Source of the DNA: Escherichia coli
GTDB lineage: Bacteria; Pseudomonadota; Gammaproteobacteria; Enterobacterales; Enterobacteriaceae
Reading direction: 5' to 3' (one strand)
DNA: 64,000 nucleotides
NCBI RefSeq assembly: GCF_009931435.1
Contig: NZ_CP043415.1
The position numbers were made by a program, and so were the translations under genes. Each line of letters opens with the position of its first letter. Positions within the stretch are counted from its first letter, which is position 1. The notes under the pieces were generated by a model. It searched no databases. It had not been told where the DNA came from and saw nothing but the letters and a program-made list of their open reading frames with translations. Positions 46,923-51,707 of the stretch are shown here, piece after piece.

Positions 46923-47324
46923 TCAGCCTGCCAGGGGGGGTCGCGCGGGCTGACAGACGGCCTCCACCGCCTGCCCCTGTAACACAACGTCCATTGCTTC
47001 GCGTTCTTCCCTGACGAATGCGTCACCGTCGCCCCCGTTCTCACTCCCGACGGCATACAGGCGCTTCATTTCACTGCCAGCCAGCGCCATCACTTTTTCC
47101 AGCATCACCGCCGGAACTGTCACCTGACGGCTGGCGCGCTTTTCTTCCATCAGTTCACGAACAACGTCATGAACAATGCTGACATCCGCACCATATTCAA
47201 AGGCATCGTCCAGCCGCTGCATGACGGTTTCCAGCTCATCGTCTGACAGGTTCCAGTCCTGAGCCATATGGCGCACATCCCCACGGGTCAGCACCACGGC
47301 CAAAACGCATTCACTGTCCGGCAC
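46923..47324 (-). CDS. Hypothetical protein, 133 aa (paralogue of the 155-aa protein at 49068-49535)
   Basis: Shared motifs ...RQVTVPA... and surrounding alignment. Confidence 0.6.
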   Translation of the reverse strand: MPDSECVLAVVLTRGDVRHMAQDWNLSDDELETVMQRLDDAFEYGADVSIVHDVVRELMEEKRASRQVTVPAVMLEKVMALAGSEMKRLYAVGSENGGDGDAFVREEREAMDVVLQGQAVEAVCQPARPPLAG

Positions 47325-47413
47325 GTCTGTATCCAGTACATCGCGGATAATTTCTTTAACAGTACATGTTCTCGTCTTCTTTACAGGGGCGGCATTGCCG
47401 CCCCGTCCGTTAA

Positions 47414-47839
47414 TCAGTCCAGTGCCGCGTAAATCGCGTTACATTCGGGGTGAAATTCGATGTGGCTCCACAACTGCGCATCGCGCATCCGGTAAAGCTG
47501 GGTCAGTCCTGCATCCCCACTGTCGTGGTACAGCCACAACTGGCGGTTAATCACAAGGGAAGTCAGAATGATGCCTGCGGCATCGGCGCTGACCGTGCGG
47601 TCAAACCAGTTTTCACCGTTGACCAGATGAAAACGGTCGCCATCCGGCATCATGTAACCGCCACCGTCCGGCAGGCGGATGAAGTGCCAGAATCCGCCTT
47701 CATATTCCGGCATCATTTTTTTCGCCAGCGCGTATACAGACGCTTCGGCATACAGAAAATCCAGGCCAAACAGGTAAGGCAGAAAAGACAGACGGTCGCA
47801 CTCTTCAACGTTCAGAGTGACAGGTTTCGCATACTGCAT
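47414..47839 (-). CDS. ArdB/KlcA-family antirestriction protein (candidate)
   Basis: 141 aa; [20 protein letters not shown] resembles the KlcA/ArdB family as remembered. Confidence 0.65.
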
Positions 47840-48220
47840 GATGTTTTCCTCCGTTGTTCACATATTCCGCGACACCGGGCGGTGCCGTGCCTCCATAAAA
47901 GCCGGGCGATAAGGCGGGGATGCACAGGGCGCAAGGGAAGCCGCAGCCTGACGCACACGGCTGACGGGAGTTGGAGGGTGAGACAGCGAAATCTGAGCGG
48001 GTGAACGACCGGAAAATCACGGCAGACGGGAAGGAGGGACCGGGTGACCGCAGCGGCGAAGCGTACCCTTGCATCCCTGCCAGCCCGGCTAAGATGGAGG
48101 CACGGCACAGCCCGCACACGACACGGCGGCCACATAACTGAAAATCCACAAGGCCATGCCCCGCATGGCTGGGTAAAGCGGAGCCGCCGGCGACTTCCTT
48201 TGTGCTCTGTCCGGGGACCG

Positions 48221-48248
48221 GCAGGAAAAAGGCGGGGATTTCCCCGCC
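48221..48248 (-). terminator. Rho-independent terminator after the 256-aa gene
   Basis: Minus strand GGCGGGGAAATCCCCGCC followed by TTTTT. Confidence 0.5.
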
Positions 48249-48252
48249 ATCA

Positions 48253-49023: not shown

Positions 49024-49067
49024 GATTCATGGTCTCCCTGAATCGCCGCCCGGAGGCGGCGATAACA

Positions 49068-49535
49068 TCAGTCGTTTTCGTGCGTGTTGTTTTTCAGCAG
49101 GATGCGGGCCTGATTAACCACCGCCTGACGGCGGGTAACGCATTCCGGGACGGCGAGGCCGTAATCACGGGCGGCCCATTCACGCTTCCACAATGCCTGT
49201 TCAGCGGTCTGAATCAGGGACGCCAGCAGTTCAGCAGGGACGGTCACCTGGCGGTTTTCGCTCACGTTGCTGATAATCTCCATCGCCGCGGCGGAAGAAA
49301 TACCGGACTCAATTCGCTGGTCTTCCGGGATGTCCTCCAGGCGCGCCAGGACGGTCCTGATTTCATGATCGGACAGGGAAATATCCATTCCGTCAGCGAG
49401 GGCCTGAATCTCTTCCGGGGACCAGACAACCAGCATCAACGGCGTGTCTCCCGGATACTTTGCTGCCAGCTCCCGGCATAGCGTTTCGCATGTTCCGTAC
49501 ATTCTCGTCTCCTTCTCAATCTTTAAAGCACGCAT
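49068..49535 (-). CDS. Hypothetical protein, 155 aa (paralogue of the 133-aa protein)
   Basis: Shared RQVTVPAELL motif. Confidence 0.6.
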   Translation of the reverse strand: MRALKIEKETRMYGTCETLCRELAAKYPGDTPLMLVVWSPEEIQALADGMDISLSDHEIRTVLARLEDIPEDQRIESGISSAAAMEIISNVSENRQVTVPAELLASLIQTAEQALWKREWAARDYGLAVPECVTRRQAVVNQARILLKNNTHEND

Positions 49536-49737
49536 CCAGTTCCAGAATTTCGGTATATGCCTCCATCAGGAGGCGGTTTGCGCGAAACAACGTCTGACGC
49601 ACCAGACGTTCCGGAAGGGTGTCAGCATTAAAGCTGTACCGCCGCTCCATCTCATTCATGGTTGTACGCAGGTCGCACATGGCATTGGCCACCTCCGCCA
49701 CTTCGGCGCGAAGTTTTTCGTGTCCGGCATAGTGCAT
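49516..49737 (-). CDS. Small hypothetical protein, 73 aa, starts 1 nt after the methyltransferase stop
   Basis: ORF track; compact operon spacing. Confidence 0.45.
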   Translation of the reverse strand: MHYAGHEKLRAEVAEVANAMCDLRTTMNEMERRYSFNADTLPERLVRQTLFRANRLLMEAYTEILELDACFKD

Positions 49738-50421
49738 TTACGCAGCCTCCGGCATAAACCAGTCATCATTCGCGGCCCCCTGCTGCATGGCCCGTTGCAC
49801 GGCGGAAAGGCGTTGCTGCCCGGCACGGTGATACTGCTCAAGCAGCTCGATACCGATATACCGGCGTCCGGACTGGAGGGCGGCGACGCAGGTTGAGCCG
49901 CTGCCTGCAAACGGGTCCAGCACAATTGCGTTCGGGTGTGTGAAGCTCTCAATCAGCGGTTGCAGGCTGGTAACGGGCTTTTCCGTCGGGTGATGGCGAT
50001 TGCCCGAATATTTCCAGCCCAGCACGTCCGGCAGCGGGTTTTGTGGCAGACGTGGACGGCCTTTTGCCAGGATGTAGGCGCATTCGTGGCGATAGCCCAC
50101 ATATGCGGCCTTCGATGTGTAGTTTTTGGTGAAGACCAGGTGACCAACCACGCTGAATCCCGCATTTTTCCAGGCGGCCACAAAGCGATCGACGCGGTTC
50201 CAGCCATAGAAGCTGACCATCAGCGCATCTTTTTTGAGTACGCGGTACATTTCATTACAGGCCGGTTGCAGCCATTCATCGGTTTTATCGCCAGCGATGG
50301 TGCGCCCGGAACGGTCACGGAAACCGACGAGGTACGGCGGGTCGGTGAGGATGAAATCAATGGCGTTATCAGGGATACGGGCTATAACATCGATGCAGTT
50401 ACCGAGGACAAAACGGGACAT
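49738..50421 (-). CDS. Orphan DNA methyltransferase, beta-class N6-adenine/N4-cytosine type
   Basis: 227 aa; DPPY near N-terminus, SAM motif LDPFAGSGSTCVAA near C-terminus; no adjacent endonuclease. Confidence 0.88.
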   Translation of the reverse strand: MSRFVLGNCIDVIARIPDNAIDFILTDPPYLVGFRDRSGRTIAGDKTDEWLQPACNEMYRVLKKDALMVSFYGWNRVDRFVAAWKNAGFSVVGHLVFTKNYTSKAAYVGYRHECAYILAKGRPRLPQNPLPDVLGWKYSGNRHHPTEKPVTSLQPLIESFTHPNAIVLDPFAGSGSTCVAALQSGRRYIGIELLEQYHRAGQQRLSAVQRAMQQGAANDDWFMPEAA

Positions 50422-50804
50422 ACAAAACGCCTTCTCTTACAGAGGGCACCGGGAGGGCACCCCTGTGGTGCCCGTTCCCCGCTGCCTGTGGGCTGTTCAC
50501 CGCGTCCGGTAACGGGTCAGGCCGACCGTGGAATACCGCAGCCGTCGTCTGTTTGACGGCAAGGTTATGCCGCGAAAGCGGCTTGAAGGGCGTTCATCAG
50601 AAAAGGGCGACAGGCTGGCGTACACTGTCACCGACGCCAGCCGGGAGCGGTAAAAGCGCCCGTCCCGTGCCCGCCGGACGCGGGACACTGACCACAGGCA
50701 GCGTTTATGCCGCGCCGCGTCAGCCGGCGCAGTAAAAAGAGGAGCATGGCGACATCCTTTACCGGAAAAGAAACGGGCAGTTGCCCGCCCGTCTCCGTCA
50801 TACT

Positions 50805-51707
50805 TCATCCACCGTAATGCGCCACCTTGTCGACTATCCACGCAGGTCCGGTGACTTCCGGCAGCTCATCGTCATCTGTCGGGGAAGACCATTCCAGTTC
50901 CCCCCACAGCACATCAACAAGCTCTCCACGCTCATATCGCTGCCAGCCACAGAAATTGCAGCCCTGTTCGGCGTACCAGTGCTCCAGCGTGCAGCCGAAA
51001 CGGCGGCTTAATTCTGCAACAACGTCGCTTTCCGGCTGACACCACGGCGTGTCGAAATCCACCTGAATGAAGTTTTCCCCCTGACTGCTGATATTCAGGT
51101 CATACCCACAAGGCCACTTCACGCCATACCGTTCTGTATACCAGTGATATGCAGAAGGAACACCGTTCAGAACACCACCGTTAAAGCCATTCACTTCAAC
51201 ATCCAGGCGGGTCGGCAGAACCGTCAGCAGGTCAAACGGCATGGTTTTTTCCGGCACTACGTTGTCACACAGACGGTTCCACCACACCGATACATCCTCG
51301 TTACCCCAGATGTCACACCAGTCACCTCTTTTTGCGGTGAAATGCACAGTGATGGTTTCCCTGACATCATCCGGTAACCCTTCCCAGCGACGCTGTCCAG
51401 TACCGCTCTGCAGCCAGAGTTCATGCAGCATCAGGCAGTTTTGCTCATCCAGCAGTACACCGTTCTGCAGGTGTGTCAGCCAGCGGGTGAACGCGATATT
51501 TTCCGTCGATACAGCACCACGTCCGGCAGCCGTCACTCCGGGGCACTGCTCAGAGCGGATATTTTCAGTGATCTGCAGAAGTCCGGCACTTCCGGCCAGA
51601 AACAGCTGAATACCTTCATTTGTGGCGCGGCGATAAAACGGTGTGACTGCACCGCTGGCCCGTCGTTTAATCTCAGCAATCTGTGCCGGTTCACCAGAAA
51701 AATGCAT
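50805..51707 (-). CDS. Hypothetical protein, 300 aa; ATG sits at the predicted 3' end of the group II intron
   Basis: ORF track; Trp/Cys-rich; no family assigned. Confidence 0.6.
   Translation of the reverse strand: MHFSGEPAQIAEIKRRASGAVTPFYRRATNEGIQLFLAGSAGLLQITENIRSEQCPGVTAAGRGAVSTENIAFTRWLTHLQNGVLLDEQNCLMLHELWLQSGTGQRRWEGLPDDVRETITVHFTAKRGDWCDIWGNEDVSVWWNRLCDNVVPEKTMPFDLLTVLPTRLDVEVNGFNGGVLNGVPSAYHWYTERYGVKWPCGYDLNISSQGENFIQVDFDTPWCQPESDVVAELSRRFGCTLEHWYAEQGCNFCGWQRYERGELVDVLWGELEWSSPTDDDELPEVTGPAWIVDKVAHYGG

What the first reader, a model, noticed from the sequence alone, without database searches (positions are those of the whole stretch)
46923..51707. Distal leading-region gene block of mostly unknown function (candidate anti-defence/establishment island)
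Nine co-directional minus-strand genes lie just beyond repeat copy 3: a 300-aa unknown, an orphan beta-class DNA methyltransferase (DPPY ... FAGSGS) with no cognate endonuclease, a 73-aa ORF starting 1 nt after it, a 155-aa and a 133-aa protein that are clear paralogues (shared RQVTVPA core), a 256-aa unknown and an ArdB/KlcA-like protein. Leading regions enter the recipient first and are known to concentrate anti-restriction and anti-SOS functions, so these uncharacterised genes are the most likely place for an undescribed system in this window.
Basis: partly seen in the sequence, partly recalled or inferred. Interest (0 to 1): 0.75.

Follow-up and report, generated by a model that had tools for sequence, protein, structure and literature searches.

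The report
Known plasmid leading-region anti-restriction block
This is the standard early-entering segment of F-type and I1-type conjugative plasmids: a single-strand DNA methylase, a restriction inhibitor and five conserved proteins of unknown role, probably switched on from DNA-hairpin promoters as the plasmid enters a new cell; it is real but already catalogued.

Summary
The ORFs are real and lie in the distal leading region of an IncF plasmid. The transferred strand is the window's + strand (exact F nic site at 33361-33377). The block is not new. At least 3972 PLSDB plasmids hold 80% or more of it, and F and the IncI1 plasmid pESBL carry it in the same gene order. The methylase is 94% identical to M.EcoGIX, a characterised single-strand-specific m6A enzyme that protects entering DNA. 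The ArdB/KlcA protein is 96% identical to F YfgB. The two long gaps upstream of these genes are 95-97% identical to the pESBL and F regions where class 3 and class 2 single-stranded-DNA promoters were reported.

- The "300-aa unknown" is exon 2 of a 308-aa DUF1281 gene split by the group II intron EcI5 (54116..51711).
- The "133-aa" DUF1380 paralogue has lost its ATG through a 5-nt deletion.
- The "155-aa" protein is probably 144 aa.
- The ORF between DUF1281 and the methylase is probably not a gene; it overlies the class 3 hairpin.

DUF1281, the 73-aa protein, both DUF1380 copies and YchA remain uncharacterised. Samuel et al. (2024) already list the DUF1281, DUF1380 and YchA families as leading-region-enriched unknowns. 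Verdict: already known, low interest.

The parts
33361..33377 (+). oriT nic sequence GTGGGGTGT|GGTGCTTT (context). It fixes the + strand as the transferred (T) strand and the template for all minus-strand leading genes.
   Evidence: Exact match, 0.04 expected by chance. The F nic sequence itself is from my own knowledge of F oriT.
54138..54470 (+). Gap upstream of DUF1281 exon 1. It holds a long T-strand hairpin (core 54167-54333) with a class-2-like TTGCAT-N15-TAACGT on the distal arm. It is a candidate additional ssDNA promoter and is not among the six the pESBL paper's text describes (its figures could not be read).
   Evidence: DNA fold -76 kcal/mol, z -4.75. Core fold and box positions. 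Shares a core with the class 2 hairpin. Three differences in about 210 nt between window, pESBL and F. Peak of -76.6 in the sliding-window scan.
54117..54137 (-). DUF1281 exon 1 (ATG CCA AAC TGG TGC TCA AAT = MPNWCSN).
   Evidence: Matches the first 7 codons of the uninterrupted pESBL gene and is followed by GTGCG.
51711..54116 (-). Group II intron EcI5 (2406 nt), in the sense orientation and in phase 0 after codon 7 of DUF1281. Its reverse transcriptase/maturase gene is at 51784..53508.
   Evidence: Rfam RF02012 at 53913-54059 and RF00029 at 51711-51787. TIGR04416 at 372 bits. 100% identical over its full length to the pO157 EDL933 copy, which PMC3522654 names E.c.I5. Junctions read. About 181 of 4439 PLSDB plasmids with this site carry the intron junction.
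50805..51710 (-). DUF1281 exon 2. The spliced product is 308 aa, pI 4.7.
   Evidence: Pfam DUF1281 1e-45 and DUF1281_C 7.5e-15. PDB 2IJR Api92 at 1e-42. 92% identical to pESBL Hp8. pI.
50422..50804 (+). T-strand hairpin (core 50480-50703) upstream of the methylase; homologue of the class 3 ssDNA promoter (ssp3). The annotated 103-aa ORF 50497..50808 lies over it and is probably spurious.
   Evidence: DNA fold -103 kcal/mol, z -5.7. Scan peak -91.7. 94.5-97% identical to pESBL and F. ORF substitutions split 5/4/6 by codon position; F has a 1-nt indel and a different N-terminal frame. ORF pI 11.8. No ORF is annotated here in PMC4288162.
49738..50421 (-). Orphan beta-class N6-adenine DNA methylase, an M.EcoGIX homologue (YfeA of F).
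   Evidence: 94% identical to M.EcoGIX (coordinates of M.EcoGIX from PMC4288162). NCBIfam PRK13699. Pfam N6_N4_Mtase. dN/dS 0.10-0.12.
49516..49737 (-). 73-aa protein of unknown function (Hp9 of pESBL); its ATG abuts the methylase stop codon.
   Evidence: phrog_4830 at 5.8e-33. 97% identical to pESBL. dN/dS 0.11-0.19. No Pfam or PDB match.
49068..49502 (-). DUF1380 paralogue a. Probable start is Met12 of the 155-aa ORF, giving 144 aa, pI 4.6.
   Evidence: Pfam DUF1380 4e-52 from residue 12. pESBL and most homologues are 144 aa. dN/dS 0.14-0.28.
48253..49023 (-). YchA/YffA/YubG-family protein, 256 aa, unknown function. The confident predicted structure has no solved analogue.
48231..48248 (-). 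Terminator-like stem-loop (GGCGGGGAAATCCCCGCC followed by TTTTT) 4 nt after the YchA stop codon; probable end of the methylase operon.
   Evidence: its stem and T run are almost unchanged in pESBL and F (one base each in F).
47840..48252 (+). T-strand hairpin (core 47876-48114) upstream of klcA/ardB; homologue of the class 2 ssDNA promoter (ssp2). It has TTGCAT-N15-TAAGAT on the distal arm, with a 3-nt internal loop inside the -10.
   Evidence: DNA fold -104.6 kcal/mol, z -5.2. Core fold. 95-97% identical to pESBL and F. Near-identical to the pESBL ardA-upstream region, as PMC12672017 reports for class 2.
47414..47839 (-). ArdB/KlcA anti-restriction protein, 141 aa (YfgB of F).
   Evidence: Pfam Antirestrict 2.8e-26. 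PDB KlcA 2KMG at 2.5e-18 and ArdB 2WJ9 at 7e-8. 96% identical to the F protein.
46923..47414 (-). DUF1380 paralogue b with a damaged start. The frame is open from 47414, but the ATG and Shine-Dalgarno used in F and pESBL are destroyed by a 5-nt deletion and a GGAG-to-GAAG change. The first canonical start is GTG at 47324 (133 aa).
   Evidence: 93% identical to pESBL Hp12 over 131 aa. Paralogy to copy a. At least 13 PLSDB plasmids match this 65-nt stretch at >=99% identity.
46220..46669 (+). Third copy of the Frpo-like (class 1) repeat, downstream of the block. It would drive the next unit (DUF3560, SAM methyltransferase).
   Evidence: Repeat families D1 and D3. Fold z -7.6. Scan peak -89.4.

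Best explanation
The finding is the canonical distal leading region shared by IncF and IncI1 conjugative plasmids. It corresponds to F yfdA-yfeA...yffA-yfgB and to pESBL Hp8, M.EcoGIX, Hp9-Hp11, KlcA/ArdB and Hp12.

Proposed mechanism:
1. During mating the window's + strand enters the recipient 5' end first from the nic at 33369/33370 (inferred from the nic match and the known polarity of F transfer).
2. While that strand is still single-stranded, long imperfect inverted repeats in the gaps fold into hairpins. These rebuild promoter-like duplexes that host RNA polymerase can use. This step is shown for the homologous elements of pESBL and F, and is inferred here from 95-97% identity and folding.
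3. The class 3 hairpin (50422-50804) drives methylase, 73-aa protein, DUF1380a and YchA. The class 2 hairpin (47840-48252) drives ArdB/KlcA and DUF1380b.
4. The methylase puts m6A at degenerate SAY sites on single-stranded DNA. The converted duplex then resists type II enzymes such as EcoGIII and EcoRI (shown for M.EcoGIX).
5. ArdB/KlcA blocks type I restriction in vivo (shown for homologues).
6. In F the class 2 hairpin also stalls complementary-strand synthesis until UvrD removes it, which prolongs expression from the downstream promoters (preprint).
7. Once the DNA is double-stranded the hairpin promoters vanish, so expression is transient.

The five remaining proteins (DUF1281, 73-aa, DUF1380a, DUF1380b, YchA) are real, acidic proteins; four lie downstream of the class 2 and class 3 hairpins. 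The three tested (73-aa, DUF1380a, YchA) are under purifying selection. Their biochemical role is unknown. My best guess, at roughly 45%, is that they are further conditional establishment or anti-defence factors acting independently rather than as one system.

In this particular plasmid two of them are compromised. DUF1281 needs EcI5 splicing, and DUF1380b has lost its start codon.
For: Identity and spread of the block:
- Megablast of 46500-52000 hits at least 5000 PLSDB plasmids, 3972 of them covering 80% or more.
- Gene order is the same in F and pESBL.
- Protein identities to pESBL are 94% (methylase), 89% (YchA), 93% (DUF1380b), 92% (DUF1281) and 97% (73-aa). ArdB is 96% identical to the F protein.

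Strand and geometry:
- The F nic sequence matches exactly on the + strand at 33361-33377.

Hairpins:
- Fold z-scores are -5.2, -5.7 and -4.75.
- A 300-nt sliding DNA fold of the + strand over 33-55.5 kb has mean -48.4 and sd 12.8 kcal/mol. Six of its ten segments at or below -70 are the three Frpo-like repeats and the three gaps of this block.
- Gap divergence is K 0.03-0.057, against dS 0.09-0.88 in the adjacent genes.
- The klcA-upstream gap is nearly identical to the pESBL ardA-upstream gap.

Literature:
- PMC12672017 reports RNA-seq induction of the KlcA and M.EcoGIX operons in pESBL and F, class 2 and class 3 ssDNA promoters, and 5' RACE start sites.
- PMC7736820 and PMC4288162 report M.EcoGIX single-strand SAY m6A activity, protection against EcoGIII and EcoRI, and the need for expression in the recipient.
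- bioRxiv 10.64898/2026.01.09.698686 reports the ssp2 roadblock, the role of UvrD, and loss of transfer into EcoKI, EcoGIII and non-isogenic hosts when ssp2 is deleted.
- PMC2836571 reports KlcA/ArdB anti-type-I activity.

Unknown proteins:
- dN/dS is 0.10-0.28.
- pI is 4.4-5.35.
- YchA has a confident AF2 model.
- Samuel et al. Supplementary Table 1 lists the families.
- The PMC4288162 table shows all of these genes as neutral in TnSeq.
Against: - Nothing was measured on this plasmid. Promoter activity, methylation and anti-restriction are all transferred by homology.
- I could not see the figures of PMC12672017. Assigning class 3 to 50422-50804 rather than to the hairpin upstream of DUF1281 rests on three things: the phrase "5' of M.EcoGIX", that laboratory's earlier pESBL annotation having no ORF there, and the paper's remark that class 3 resembles no other hairpin.
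- I found no convincing -35/-10 pair in the class 3 hairpin. The simple sigma-70 scan finds none in the block in duplex form.
- The unknown proteins have no domain, structural or defence-database link to any function.
- Two of the unknowns are dispensable here and one is dispensable in F. Their proposed role is a guess.
Confidence: 0.85

Rival explanations
1. One reading: the uncharacterised genes (DUF1281, 73-aa, the two DUF1380 copies, YchA) together form one undescribed multi-gene anti-defence system.
For: - Synteny is very stable across IncF and IncI1 plasmids.
- The proteins are acidic, as many anti-restriction proteins are.
- They sit in a region statistically enriched for anti-defence genes (PMC11541004).
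Against: - The genes lie in at least two, probably three, separate transcription units, each with its own hairpin.
- Individual members are inactivated while the rest stay intact: DUF1281 is frameshifted in F and intron-split here, and DUF1380b has lost its start here.
- No PADLOC, NCBIfam, PDB or fold link ties them together.
- They are already catalogued, so they are known unknowns rather than undescribed genes.
Confidence: 0.08
2. The unknown proteins are not anti-defence factors. They serve early plasmid housekeeping instead. Examples would be handling of the incoming single strand, control of strand conversion, or reprogramming of the host, as recently reported for the ParB-like leading protein YfjB/HerB.
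For: - They lie downstream of the ssDNA-promoter hairpins, whose homologues drive early transcription in pESBL and F (PMC12672017).
- HerB shows that leading-region unknowns can act on host physiology rather than on defence (PMC13370423).
- The class 2 hairpin itself has a DNA-processing role (bioRxiv 10.64898/2026.01.09.698686).
- M.EcoGIX appears to act together with Pol I (PMC7736820), so accessory partners are conceivable.
Against: - No nucleic-acid-binding or enzymatic domain was detected.
- The proteins are acidic, which argues against direct DNA binding.
- TnSeq in pESBL found them neutral for maintenance and transfer between K-12 strains.
- According to the preprint, rifampicin does not prevent strand conversion, so no newly made plasmid protein is required for it.
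Confidence: 0.25
3. Some or all of the unknown ORFs are decaying passengers or annotation artefacts with no function.
For: - ORF 50497..50808 does look spurious.
- DUF1281 is a pseudogene in F.
- DUF1380b lacks its start here.
- All are neutral in TnSeq.
Against: - dN/dS is 0.10-0.28 for the 73-aa protein, DUF1380a and YchA, with dS up to 0.88.
- There are Pfam or PHROG families for all of them.
- YchA folds confidently from a 20-sequence alignment whose members go down to 23% identity.
- Thousands of intact copies exist.
Confidence: 0.05

Closest known systems
pESBL (IncI1, E. coli O104:H4) leading-region segment Hp8 - M.EcoGIX - Hp9 - Hp10 - YchA/Hp11 - KlcA/ArdB - Hp12, with class 3 and class 2 ssDNA promoters (PMC4288162, PMC7736820, PMC12672017)
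   Same: Gene order and orientation are identical. Proteins are 89-97% identical. The promoter-bearing gaps are 95-97% identical. The DinI/UmuD module lies upstream in both.
   Different: Here DUF1281 carries the EcoI5-type intron EcI5 and DUF1380b has lost its ATG. Downstream, this plasmid has an extra Frpo-like repeat plus a DUF3560 and SAM-methyltransferase unit before ssb. The backbone is IncF rather than IncI1.
F plasmid leading region yfdA - yfeA ... yffA - yfgB, with ssp3 and ssp2 (bioRxiv 10.64898/2026.01.09.698686; PMC12672017)
   Same: The genes and hairpins are the same. ArdB is 96% identical. The nic site is identical.
   Different: In F the DUF1281 gene is frameshifted into two ORFs and has no intron, and DUF1380b is intact. 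The region upstream of the DUF1281 hairpin differs: the sop genes in F, DinI/umuD here.
Anti-defence islands of plasmid leading regions (Samuel et al. 2024, PMC11541004)
   Same: The block lies in the leading region, is oriented for T-strand transcription, combines an orphan methylase with an anti-restriction gene, and lies beside Frpo-like ssDNA promoters. The families I looked up are in that paper's list of leading-region-enriched families.
   Different: No anti-CRISPR or other newly validated anti-defence gene is present. This is the commonest enterobacterial version of such an island, not a new variant.
EcI5 (E.c.I5) group II intron of pO157
   Same: 100% identical over all 2406 nt to the pO157 EDL933 copy. 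It has a GTGCG 5' end, domain 5-6 at the 3' end, and an RT/maturase with an HNH-like tail.
   Different: None in sequence. What I add is that it sits after codon 7 of the leading-region DUF1281 gene, in the sense orientation. That site is occupied in about 4% of plasmids that have it. I did not check that the pO157 copy occupies the same site.

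Membership tests
Beta-class N6/N4 DNA methyltransferase, M.EcoGIX subfamily | Catalytic motif IV (DPPY) lies N-terminal to the SAM-binding motif I (FxGxG). | tested here: met
   TDPPYL at residues 26-31 and DPFAGSGS at 169-176, read from the translation.
Beta-class N6/N4 DNA methyltransferase, M.EcoGIX subfamily | Profile membership above curated thresholds. | tested here: met
   NCBIfam PRK13699 at 495.5 bits against a cut-off of 244. Pfam PF01555 at 7e-39. PADLOC MTase_II at 4e-143.
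Beta-class N6/N4 DNA methyltransferase, M.EcoGIX subfamily | Close identity to the characterised enzyme. | tested here: met
   214/227 residues (94%) identical to pESBL 54782-55465, which PMC4288162 labels M.EcoGIX.
Beta-class N6/N4 DNA methyltransferase, M.EcoGIX subfamily | [quoted passage not shown] | tested here: met
   PADLOC matches no other protein of the block. Strand and nic position.
Beta-class N6/N4 DNA methyltransferase, M.EcoGIX subfamily | Single-strand-specific m6A methylation at SAY sites. | not testable with these tools
   Needs SMRT or Nanopore sequencing, or an in vitro assay.
ArdB/KlcA anti-restriction proteins | Pfam Antirestrict (PF03230) domain spanning the protein, and similarity to solved KlcA and ArdB. 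| tested here: met
   Pfam 2.8e-26. 2KMG at 2.5e-18 over residues 5-141 and 2WJ9 at 7e-8. 96% identical to F YfgB.
ArdB/KlcA anti-restriction proteins | Inhibits type I restriction in vivo. | not testable with these tools
   Shown for homologues (PMC2836571; the F preprint).
Single-stranded-DNA promoters of leading regions (class 2 / ssp2 and class 3 / ssp3) | A long imperfect hairpin on the transferred strand, in the gap upstream of an operon read from that strand. | tested here: met
   Strand.
Single-stranded-DNA promoters of leading regions (class 2 / ssp2 and class 3 / ssp3) | Sequence homology to the experimentally mapped elements of pESBL and F. | tested here: met
   95-97% identity. The class 2 pair klcA-up and ardA-up is reproduced. 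Which pESBL gap is class 3 is inferred from text and annotation, not from the figure.
Single-stranded-DNA promoters of leading regions (class 2 / ssp2 and class 3 / ssp3) | -35 and -10 hexamers rebuilt in the stem. | tested here: inconclusive
   Class 2 has TTGCAT-N15-TAAGAT with an internal loop in the -10. That is only 3/6 and 4/6 matches with a short spacer. I found no convincing pair in the class 3 hairpin.
Single-stranded-DNA promoters of leading regions (class 2 / ssp2 and class 3 / ssp3) | Active in single-stranded form only, with transient induction in transconjugants. | not testable with these tools
   Reported for pESBL and F in PMC12672017.
DUF1380 (PF07128) | Match to the Pfam model. 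| tested here: met
   Copy a matches at 4e-52. Copy b does not reach the Pfam threshold on its own (only 1 of 5 sequences matched). It is tied to the family by BLASTP E 5e-8 to copy a, phrog_9024 at 3.7e-4, and the PGAP name.
DUF1281 / Api92-like (PF06924 + PF18406) | Both domains present, and similarity to the solved Api92 structure. | tested here: met
   The family has no known function.
Mobile group II intron (EcI5) | Ribozyme domains, GUGYG 5' end, and an intron-encoded RT/maturase. | tested here: met
   Splicing and mobility were not tested.
Leading-region anti-defence island (sense of Samuel et al. 2024) | Known anti-defence genes clustered in the leading region, on the strand transcribable from the T strand, next to ssDNA promoters. 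| tested here: met

The most novel reading that the evidence does not exclude
Two things remain open.

(a) At least one of the five conserved acidic unknowns is an establishment or anti-defence effector with a new mechanism. The candidates are DUF1281, the 73-aa protein, DUF1380a, DUF1380b and YchA. YchA has a confidently predicted two-domain alpha/beta structure with no solved analogue.

(b) The hairpin upstream of DUF1281 (54167-54333) is an additional ssDNA promoter or initiation signal. It shows three differences in about 210 nt between this plasmid, pESBL and F, and it stays that conserved even in F, where the gene behind it is dead. It carries a class-2-like TTGCAT-N15-TAACGT with a looped-out -10. 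It is apparently not among the six promoters the text of the pESBL paper describes or the four operons described for F.
Probability: 0.35. Interest if true: 0.5.

Novelty: already known. Interest (0 to 1): 0.2.

Why it matters
The block belongs to the part of IncF and IncI1 resistance and virulence plasmids that decides whether a transferred plasmid survives its first minutes in a new host, so it matters for how antibiotic resistance spreads. That importance is already recognised. The methylase, ArdB and the hairpin promoters have been studied, and the unknown proteins are on published lists of leading-region-enriched families.

What this window adds is small:
- A cleaner gene model: an intron-split DUF1281, a start-damaged DUF1380 copy, and an annotated ORF that is really a promoter hairpin.
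- Evidence from natural variants that DUF1281 and one DUF1380 copy can be lost.
- A pointer to a third, extremely conserved hairpin that may deserve a 5' RACE experiment.

Tried and rejected
- NCBIfam, PADLOC and Pfam gave nothing for the 73-aa and 256-aa proteins. For DUF1380 and DUF1281 they gave nothing beyond the DUF names.
- PHROGs returned only families of unknown function.
- Sequence and profile searches of the PDB gave no usable relative for YchA, DUF1380 or the 73-aa protein. A PP-binding hit at E 0.011 and a de novo design hit at E 0.005 were dismissed as noise.
- Single-sequence AF2 of YchA was useless (pLDDT 42). I should have built the alignment first, and this cost one of the two structure jobs. 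DUF1380 therefore could not be modelled.
- I looked for less-conserved copies of the DUF1281-upstream hairpin to test covariation. The identity distribution is bimodal, with 4362 records at 95% or more and only short partial matches below that, so no covariation test was possible.
- I could not find -35/-10 boxes in the class 3 hairpin.
- Loci fetched by accession (L002-L004) were not visible to Python. Codon analyses were therefore run on alignments made with DNA alignment.
- I considered and rejected the idea that the 103-aa ORF is a ninth gene.
- I considered that class 3 might be the DUF1281-upstream hairpin. I judged this less likely (about 15%) because of the pESBL annotation and the wording in PMC12672017.

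Full report
WHAT THE WINDOW IS. The window is an IncF conjugative plasmid of E. coli. Region 46500-52000 is 100% identical to plasmid p1 of strain QML220601 (IncFIA/FIB, MOBF). The annotated neighbourhood runs traM, SLT transglycosylase, hok, psiB, ParB-like, DUF905, ssb, SAM methyltransferase, DUF3560, and then the block. The F nic sequence GTGGGGTGT|GGTGCTTT occurs once, exactly, on the + strand at 33361-33377 (the nic sequence itself is from my own knowledge). The + strand is therefore the transferred strand. It enters 5' end first towards higher coordinates, and it is the template for all the minus-strand genes. The block lies 13.5-20.8 kb from nic.

CHECK OF THE OBSERVATION.
- The 300-aa ORF has DUF1281 and DUF1281_C domains and matches the solved but functionless Api92, PDB 2IJR.
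- The 227-aa protein is a beta-class methylase, with DPPY before FAGSGS. It scores 495 bits on NCBIfam PRK13699 against a cut-off of 244 and matches Pfam N6_N4_Mtase.
- The 73-aa ORF starts directly after the methylase stop codon.
- The 155-aa protein is DUF1380 (4e-52). The 133-aa protein is its paralogue, at 29% identity and E 5e-8, sharing RQVTVPA.
- The 256-aa protein has no Pfam match.
- The 141-aa protein is ArdB/KlcA (Pfam Antirestrict; KlcA 2KMG and ArdB 2WJ9).
- Repeat copy 3 is at 46220-46669. The other copies are at 35515-36141 and 42885-43525.
- Against pESBL and F, the methylase, 73-aa, DUF1380a and YchA genes show dN/dS of 0.10-0.28, with dS of 0.09-0.88. They are real genes under purifying selection.

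CORRECTIONS TO THE GENE MODELS.
1. The 300-aa ORF is exon 2 of a split gene.
   - In pESBL the gene begins ATGCCAAACTGGTGCTCGAATCGTATGTAT....
   - In the window the first seven codons, MPNWCSN, are at 54137-54117. They are followed by GTGCG and Rfam group II domains (RF02012 at 53913-54059, RF00029 at 51711-51787).
   - The reading frame resumes with CGTATGCAT at 51710.
   - The 2406-nt intron (54116..51711) encodes the 574-aa RT/maturase at 51784..53508 (TIGR04416).
   - It is 100% identical to the pO157 EDL933 copy, which PMC3522654 calls E.c.I5.
   - The spliced product is 308 aa, as in pESBL (92% identity).
   - About 181 of 4439 plasmids that carry this site have the intron junction.
2. 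The 133-aa ORF has lost its start. F and pESBL read GGAGACGAGAACATGTACTGTACTGTT. The window lacks five bases (TGTAC) and has GAAG in place of GGAG, so the old ATG now reads ATG TAC TGT TAA. The DUF1380 frame stays open back to the ArdB stop codon, which is why PGAP aa from 47414, where the codon is ATT. The residues before the GTG at 47324 align with the paralogue. At least 13 PLSDB plasmids match this 65-nt stretch at 99% identity or more.
3. The 155-aa ORF probably starts at Met12, giving 144 aa. The Pfam match begins there, and pESBL and most homologues are 144 aa.
4. The PGAP-annotated 103-aa ORF at 50497..50808 is probably not a gene.
   - F has a 1-nt insertion, so the first 43 residues of its ORF are read in another frame.
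   - Substitutions fall 5/4/6 across the three codon positions.
   - The product has pI 11.8.
   - The laboratory that characterised pESBL annotated no ORF there (PMC4288162).

WHAT THE GAPS ARE. Three long gaps in the block fold, as single-stranded DNA of the + strand, into long imperfect hairpins.
- 47840-48252: -104.6 kcal/mol, z -5.2.
- 50422-50804: -103.1 kcal/mol, z -5.7.
- 54138-54470: -76 kcal/mol, z -4.75.

A 300-nt sliding fold over 33-55.5 kb has mean -48.4 and sd 12.8 kcal/mol. Six of its ten segments at or below -70 are the three Frpo-like repeats (-97, -93, -89) and these three gaps (-74, -92, -77). The other four are weaker (-70.6 to -72.7), lie at 41300-41719, 43640-43959 and 54040-54339, and were not examined.

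The gaps are more conserved than the genes around them. Their divergence from pESBL and F is K 0.03-0.057, against dS of 0.25-0.53 in the methylase gene.

The klcA-upstream gap is nearly identical to the pESBL ardA-upstream gap. This is the relationship Wen et al. report for their class 2 ssDNA promoters (PMC12672017). That paper shows three things:
- In pESBL and F, the KlcA and M.EcoGIX operons are induced early in transconjugants.
- A class 2 hairpin lies 5' of klcA and ardA, and a class 3 hairpin, unlike any other, lies 5' of M.EcoGIX.
- 5' RACE confirms the start sites, and both classes are conserved in F.

The F preprint (bioRxiv 10.64898/2026.01.09.698686) adds further points:
- F's leading region has four operons, each with an ssDNA promoter.
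- ssp2 drives yfgB, the ArdB homologue.
- The ssp2 stem-loop stalls complementary-strand synthesis until UvrD resolves it, which raises PsiB output about two-fold.
- Deleting ssp2 lowers transfer into EcoKI, EcoGIII and non-isogenic recipients.

On the distal arm of the class 2 hairpin I find TTGCAT-N15-TAAGAT, with a 3-nt internal loop inside the -10. This places a start about 50 nt upstream of the ArdB ATG. That placement is my inference. A terminator-like stem-loop follows the YchA stop codon directly (48248-48231), which fits an operon boundary there.

THE CHARACTERISED GENES. The methylase is 94% identical to M.EcoGIX. M.EcoGIX is pESBL 54782-55465 according to PMC4288162. It methylates adenine at degenerate SAY sites on single-stranded DNA only. 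[quoted passage not shown] It protects transfer into EcoGIII, EcoRI and a Klebsiella recipient (PMC7736820; PMC4288162). ArdB/KlcA here is 96% identical to F YfgB. KlcA and ArdB block type I restriction in vivo (PMC2836571).

THE UNKNOWNS. DUF1281, the 73-aa protein, the two DUF1380 copies and YchA have no hit in PADLOC or NCBIfam. Only function-less PHROG families match. No informative PDB relative was found by sequence or profile.
- YchA (YffA in F, Hp11 in pESBL) has 181 relatives among 1.84 billion cluster representatives.
- With a 20-sequence alignment reaching down to 23% identity, AF2 gives pLDDT 91 and pTM 0.83, a tandem alpha/beta architecture.
- All the unknowns are acidic, with pI 4.4-5.35.
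- In pESBL TnSeq they are neutral for maintenance and for transfer between K-12 strains.
- Samuel et al. already list them among the leading-region-enriched families: rank 6 (YchA/YffA), rank 7 (DUF1380) and rank 27 (DUF1281), labelled uncharacterised. The methylase is rank 8 and KlcA rank 9.
- No paper in the library gives a function for DUF1380 or DUF1281.

MECHANISM. Shown for homologues and inferred here:
1. The + strand enters the recipient.
2. Its hairpins form promoters for host RNA polymerase.
3. The class 3 unit makes the methylase, the 73-aa protein, DUF1380a and YchA. The class 2 unit makes ArdB and, where intact, DUF1380b.
4. The methylase marks the incoming single strand and ArdB disarms type I enzymes.
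5. The class 2 hairpin also holds back strand conversion.
6. Conversion to duplex DNA erases the promoters.

The role of the unknown proteins is a guess. I put about 45% on independent, conditional establishment or anti-defence factors, about 25% on early DNA- or host-handling functions, and little on a single joint system. The reasons for the last point are the separate transcription units and the fact that single genes are lost on their own: DUF1281 in F, and DUF1281 and DUF1380b here.

A LOOSE END. The hairpin upstream of DUF1281 shows three differences in about 210 nt between this plasmid, pESBL and F, although F's DUF1281 is a pseudogene. It is present at 95% identity or more in 4362 PLSDB plasmids. 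It shares its core with class 2, including TTGCAT-N15-TAACGT with a looped-out -10, which would give a start about 38 nt before the DUF1281 ATG. The text of PMC12672017 describes six promoters in pESBL, and the preprint describes four operons in F, and neither seems to include it. I could not see the figures. I also allow about 15% that this hairpin, rather than the 50422-50804 one, is their class 3.

VERDICT. It is wrong in expecting something undescribed. The block is the commonest and best-studied such region. Novelty: already known. Interest: low.

Noticed in passing
window 51711-54116 (-), exons 54117-54137 and 50805-51710: The group II intron EcI5 (100% identical to the pO157 copy) sits in the sense orientation after codon 7 of the leading-region DUF1281 gene. 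The 300-aa ORF is therefore only exon 2. The site is occupied in about 181 of 4439 plasmids that have it.
   Followed up: yes
window 47360-47380 (-): A 5-nt deletion (TGTAC, one unit of a short direct repeat) plus a GGAG-to-GAAG change removes the start codon and ribosome-binding site of the second DUF1380 gene. PGAP annotates a 163-aa product from position 47414, overlapping the ArdB stop codon, where the sequence reads ATT. At least 13 PLSDB plasmids match this 65-nt stretch at >=99% identity.
   Followed up: partly
window 50497-50808 (-): The RefSeq-annotated 103-aa hypothetical protein overlies the class 3 hairpin and is probably spurious. In F its N-terminus is read in a different frame, there is no third-position bias in substitutions, and its pI is 11.8.
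   Followed up: yes
window 54138-54470 (core 54167-54333): There is a hairpin upstream of DUF1281 with a class-2-like core and promoter-like boxes. It shows three differences in about 210 nt across this plasmid, pESBL and F (where the gene behind it is dead). It may be an additional ssDNA promoter or initiation signal not listed in the papers I could read.
   Followed up: partly
window 38916-40717 (+), flanked by 40727-42022 (-) and 38045-38863 (-): An IS21-family element (IstA and IstB) appears to interrupt the ParB-like leading gene, the YfjB/HerB homologue. The 431-aa upstream piece carries the ParB domain. The otherwise identical plasmid NZ_CP132064 has an intact 652-aa gene.
   Followed up: partly
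window 45997-46096 (+): Rfam hit to AS-pc01 (antisense RNA to pHK01_035), 98.9 bits against a gathering score of 79. It lies between the DUF3560 unit and repeat copy 3, on the strand opposite the leading genes.
   Followed up: no
window 55167-55871 (+): Only a 234-aa fragment of umuC (profile positions 103-303 of 422) follows dinI-like (54471-54779) and umuD (54776-55195). The SOS mutagenesis module next to the leading region is truncated.
   Followed up: no
window 41300-41719 and 43640-43959 (+): There are two weaker T-strand folding minima (-70.7 and -72.7 kcal/mol per 300 nt), inside or next to the ParB-like and SAM-methyltransferase genes. Not examined.
   Followed up: no
window 43748-45720 (-): An extra unit lies between repeat copies 2 and 3. 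It holds DUF3560 (453 aa) and a class I SAM methyltransferase (187 aa; PADLOC mad2 1.2e-20, similar to phage DNA methylase domains). It is absent from F and pESBL at this position and would be a second candidate protective methylase.
   Followed up: no
window 36558-36734 (-): Rfam hit to sok antitoxin RNA (88.9 bits). It marks the hok/sok (flm) module in the proximal leading region.
   Followed up: no
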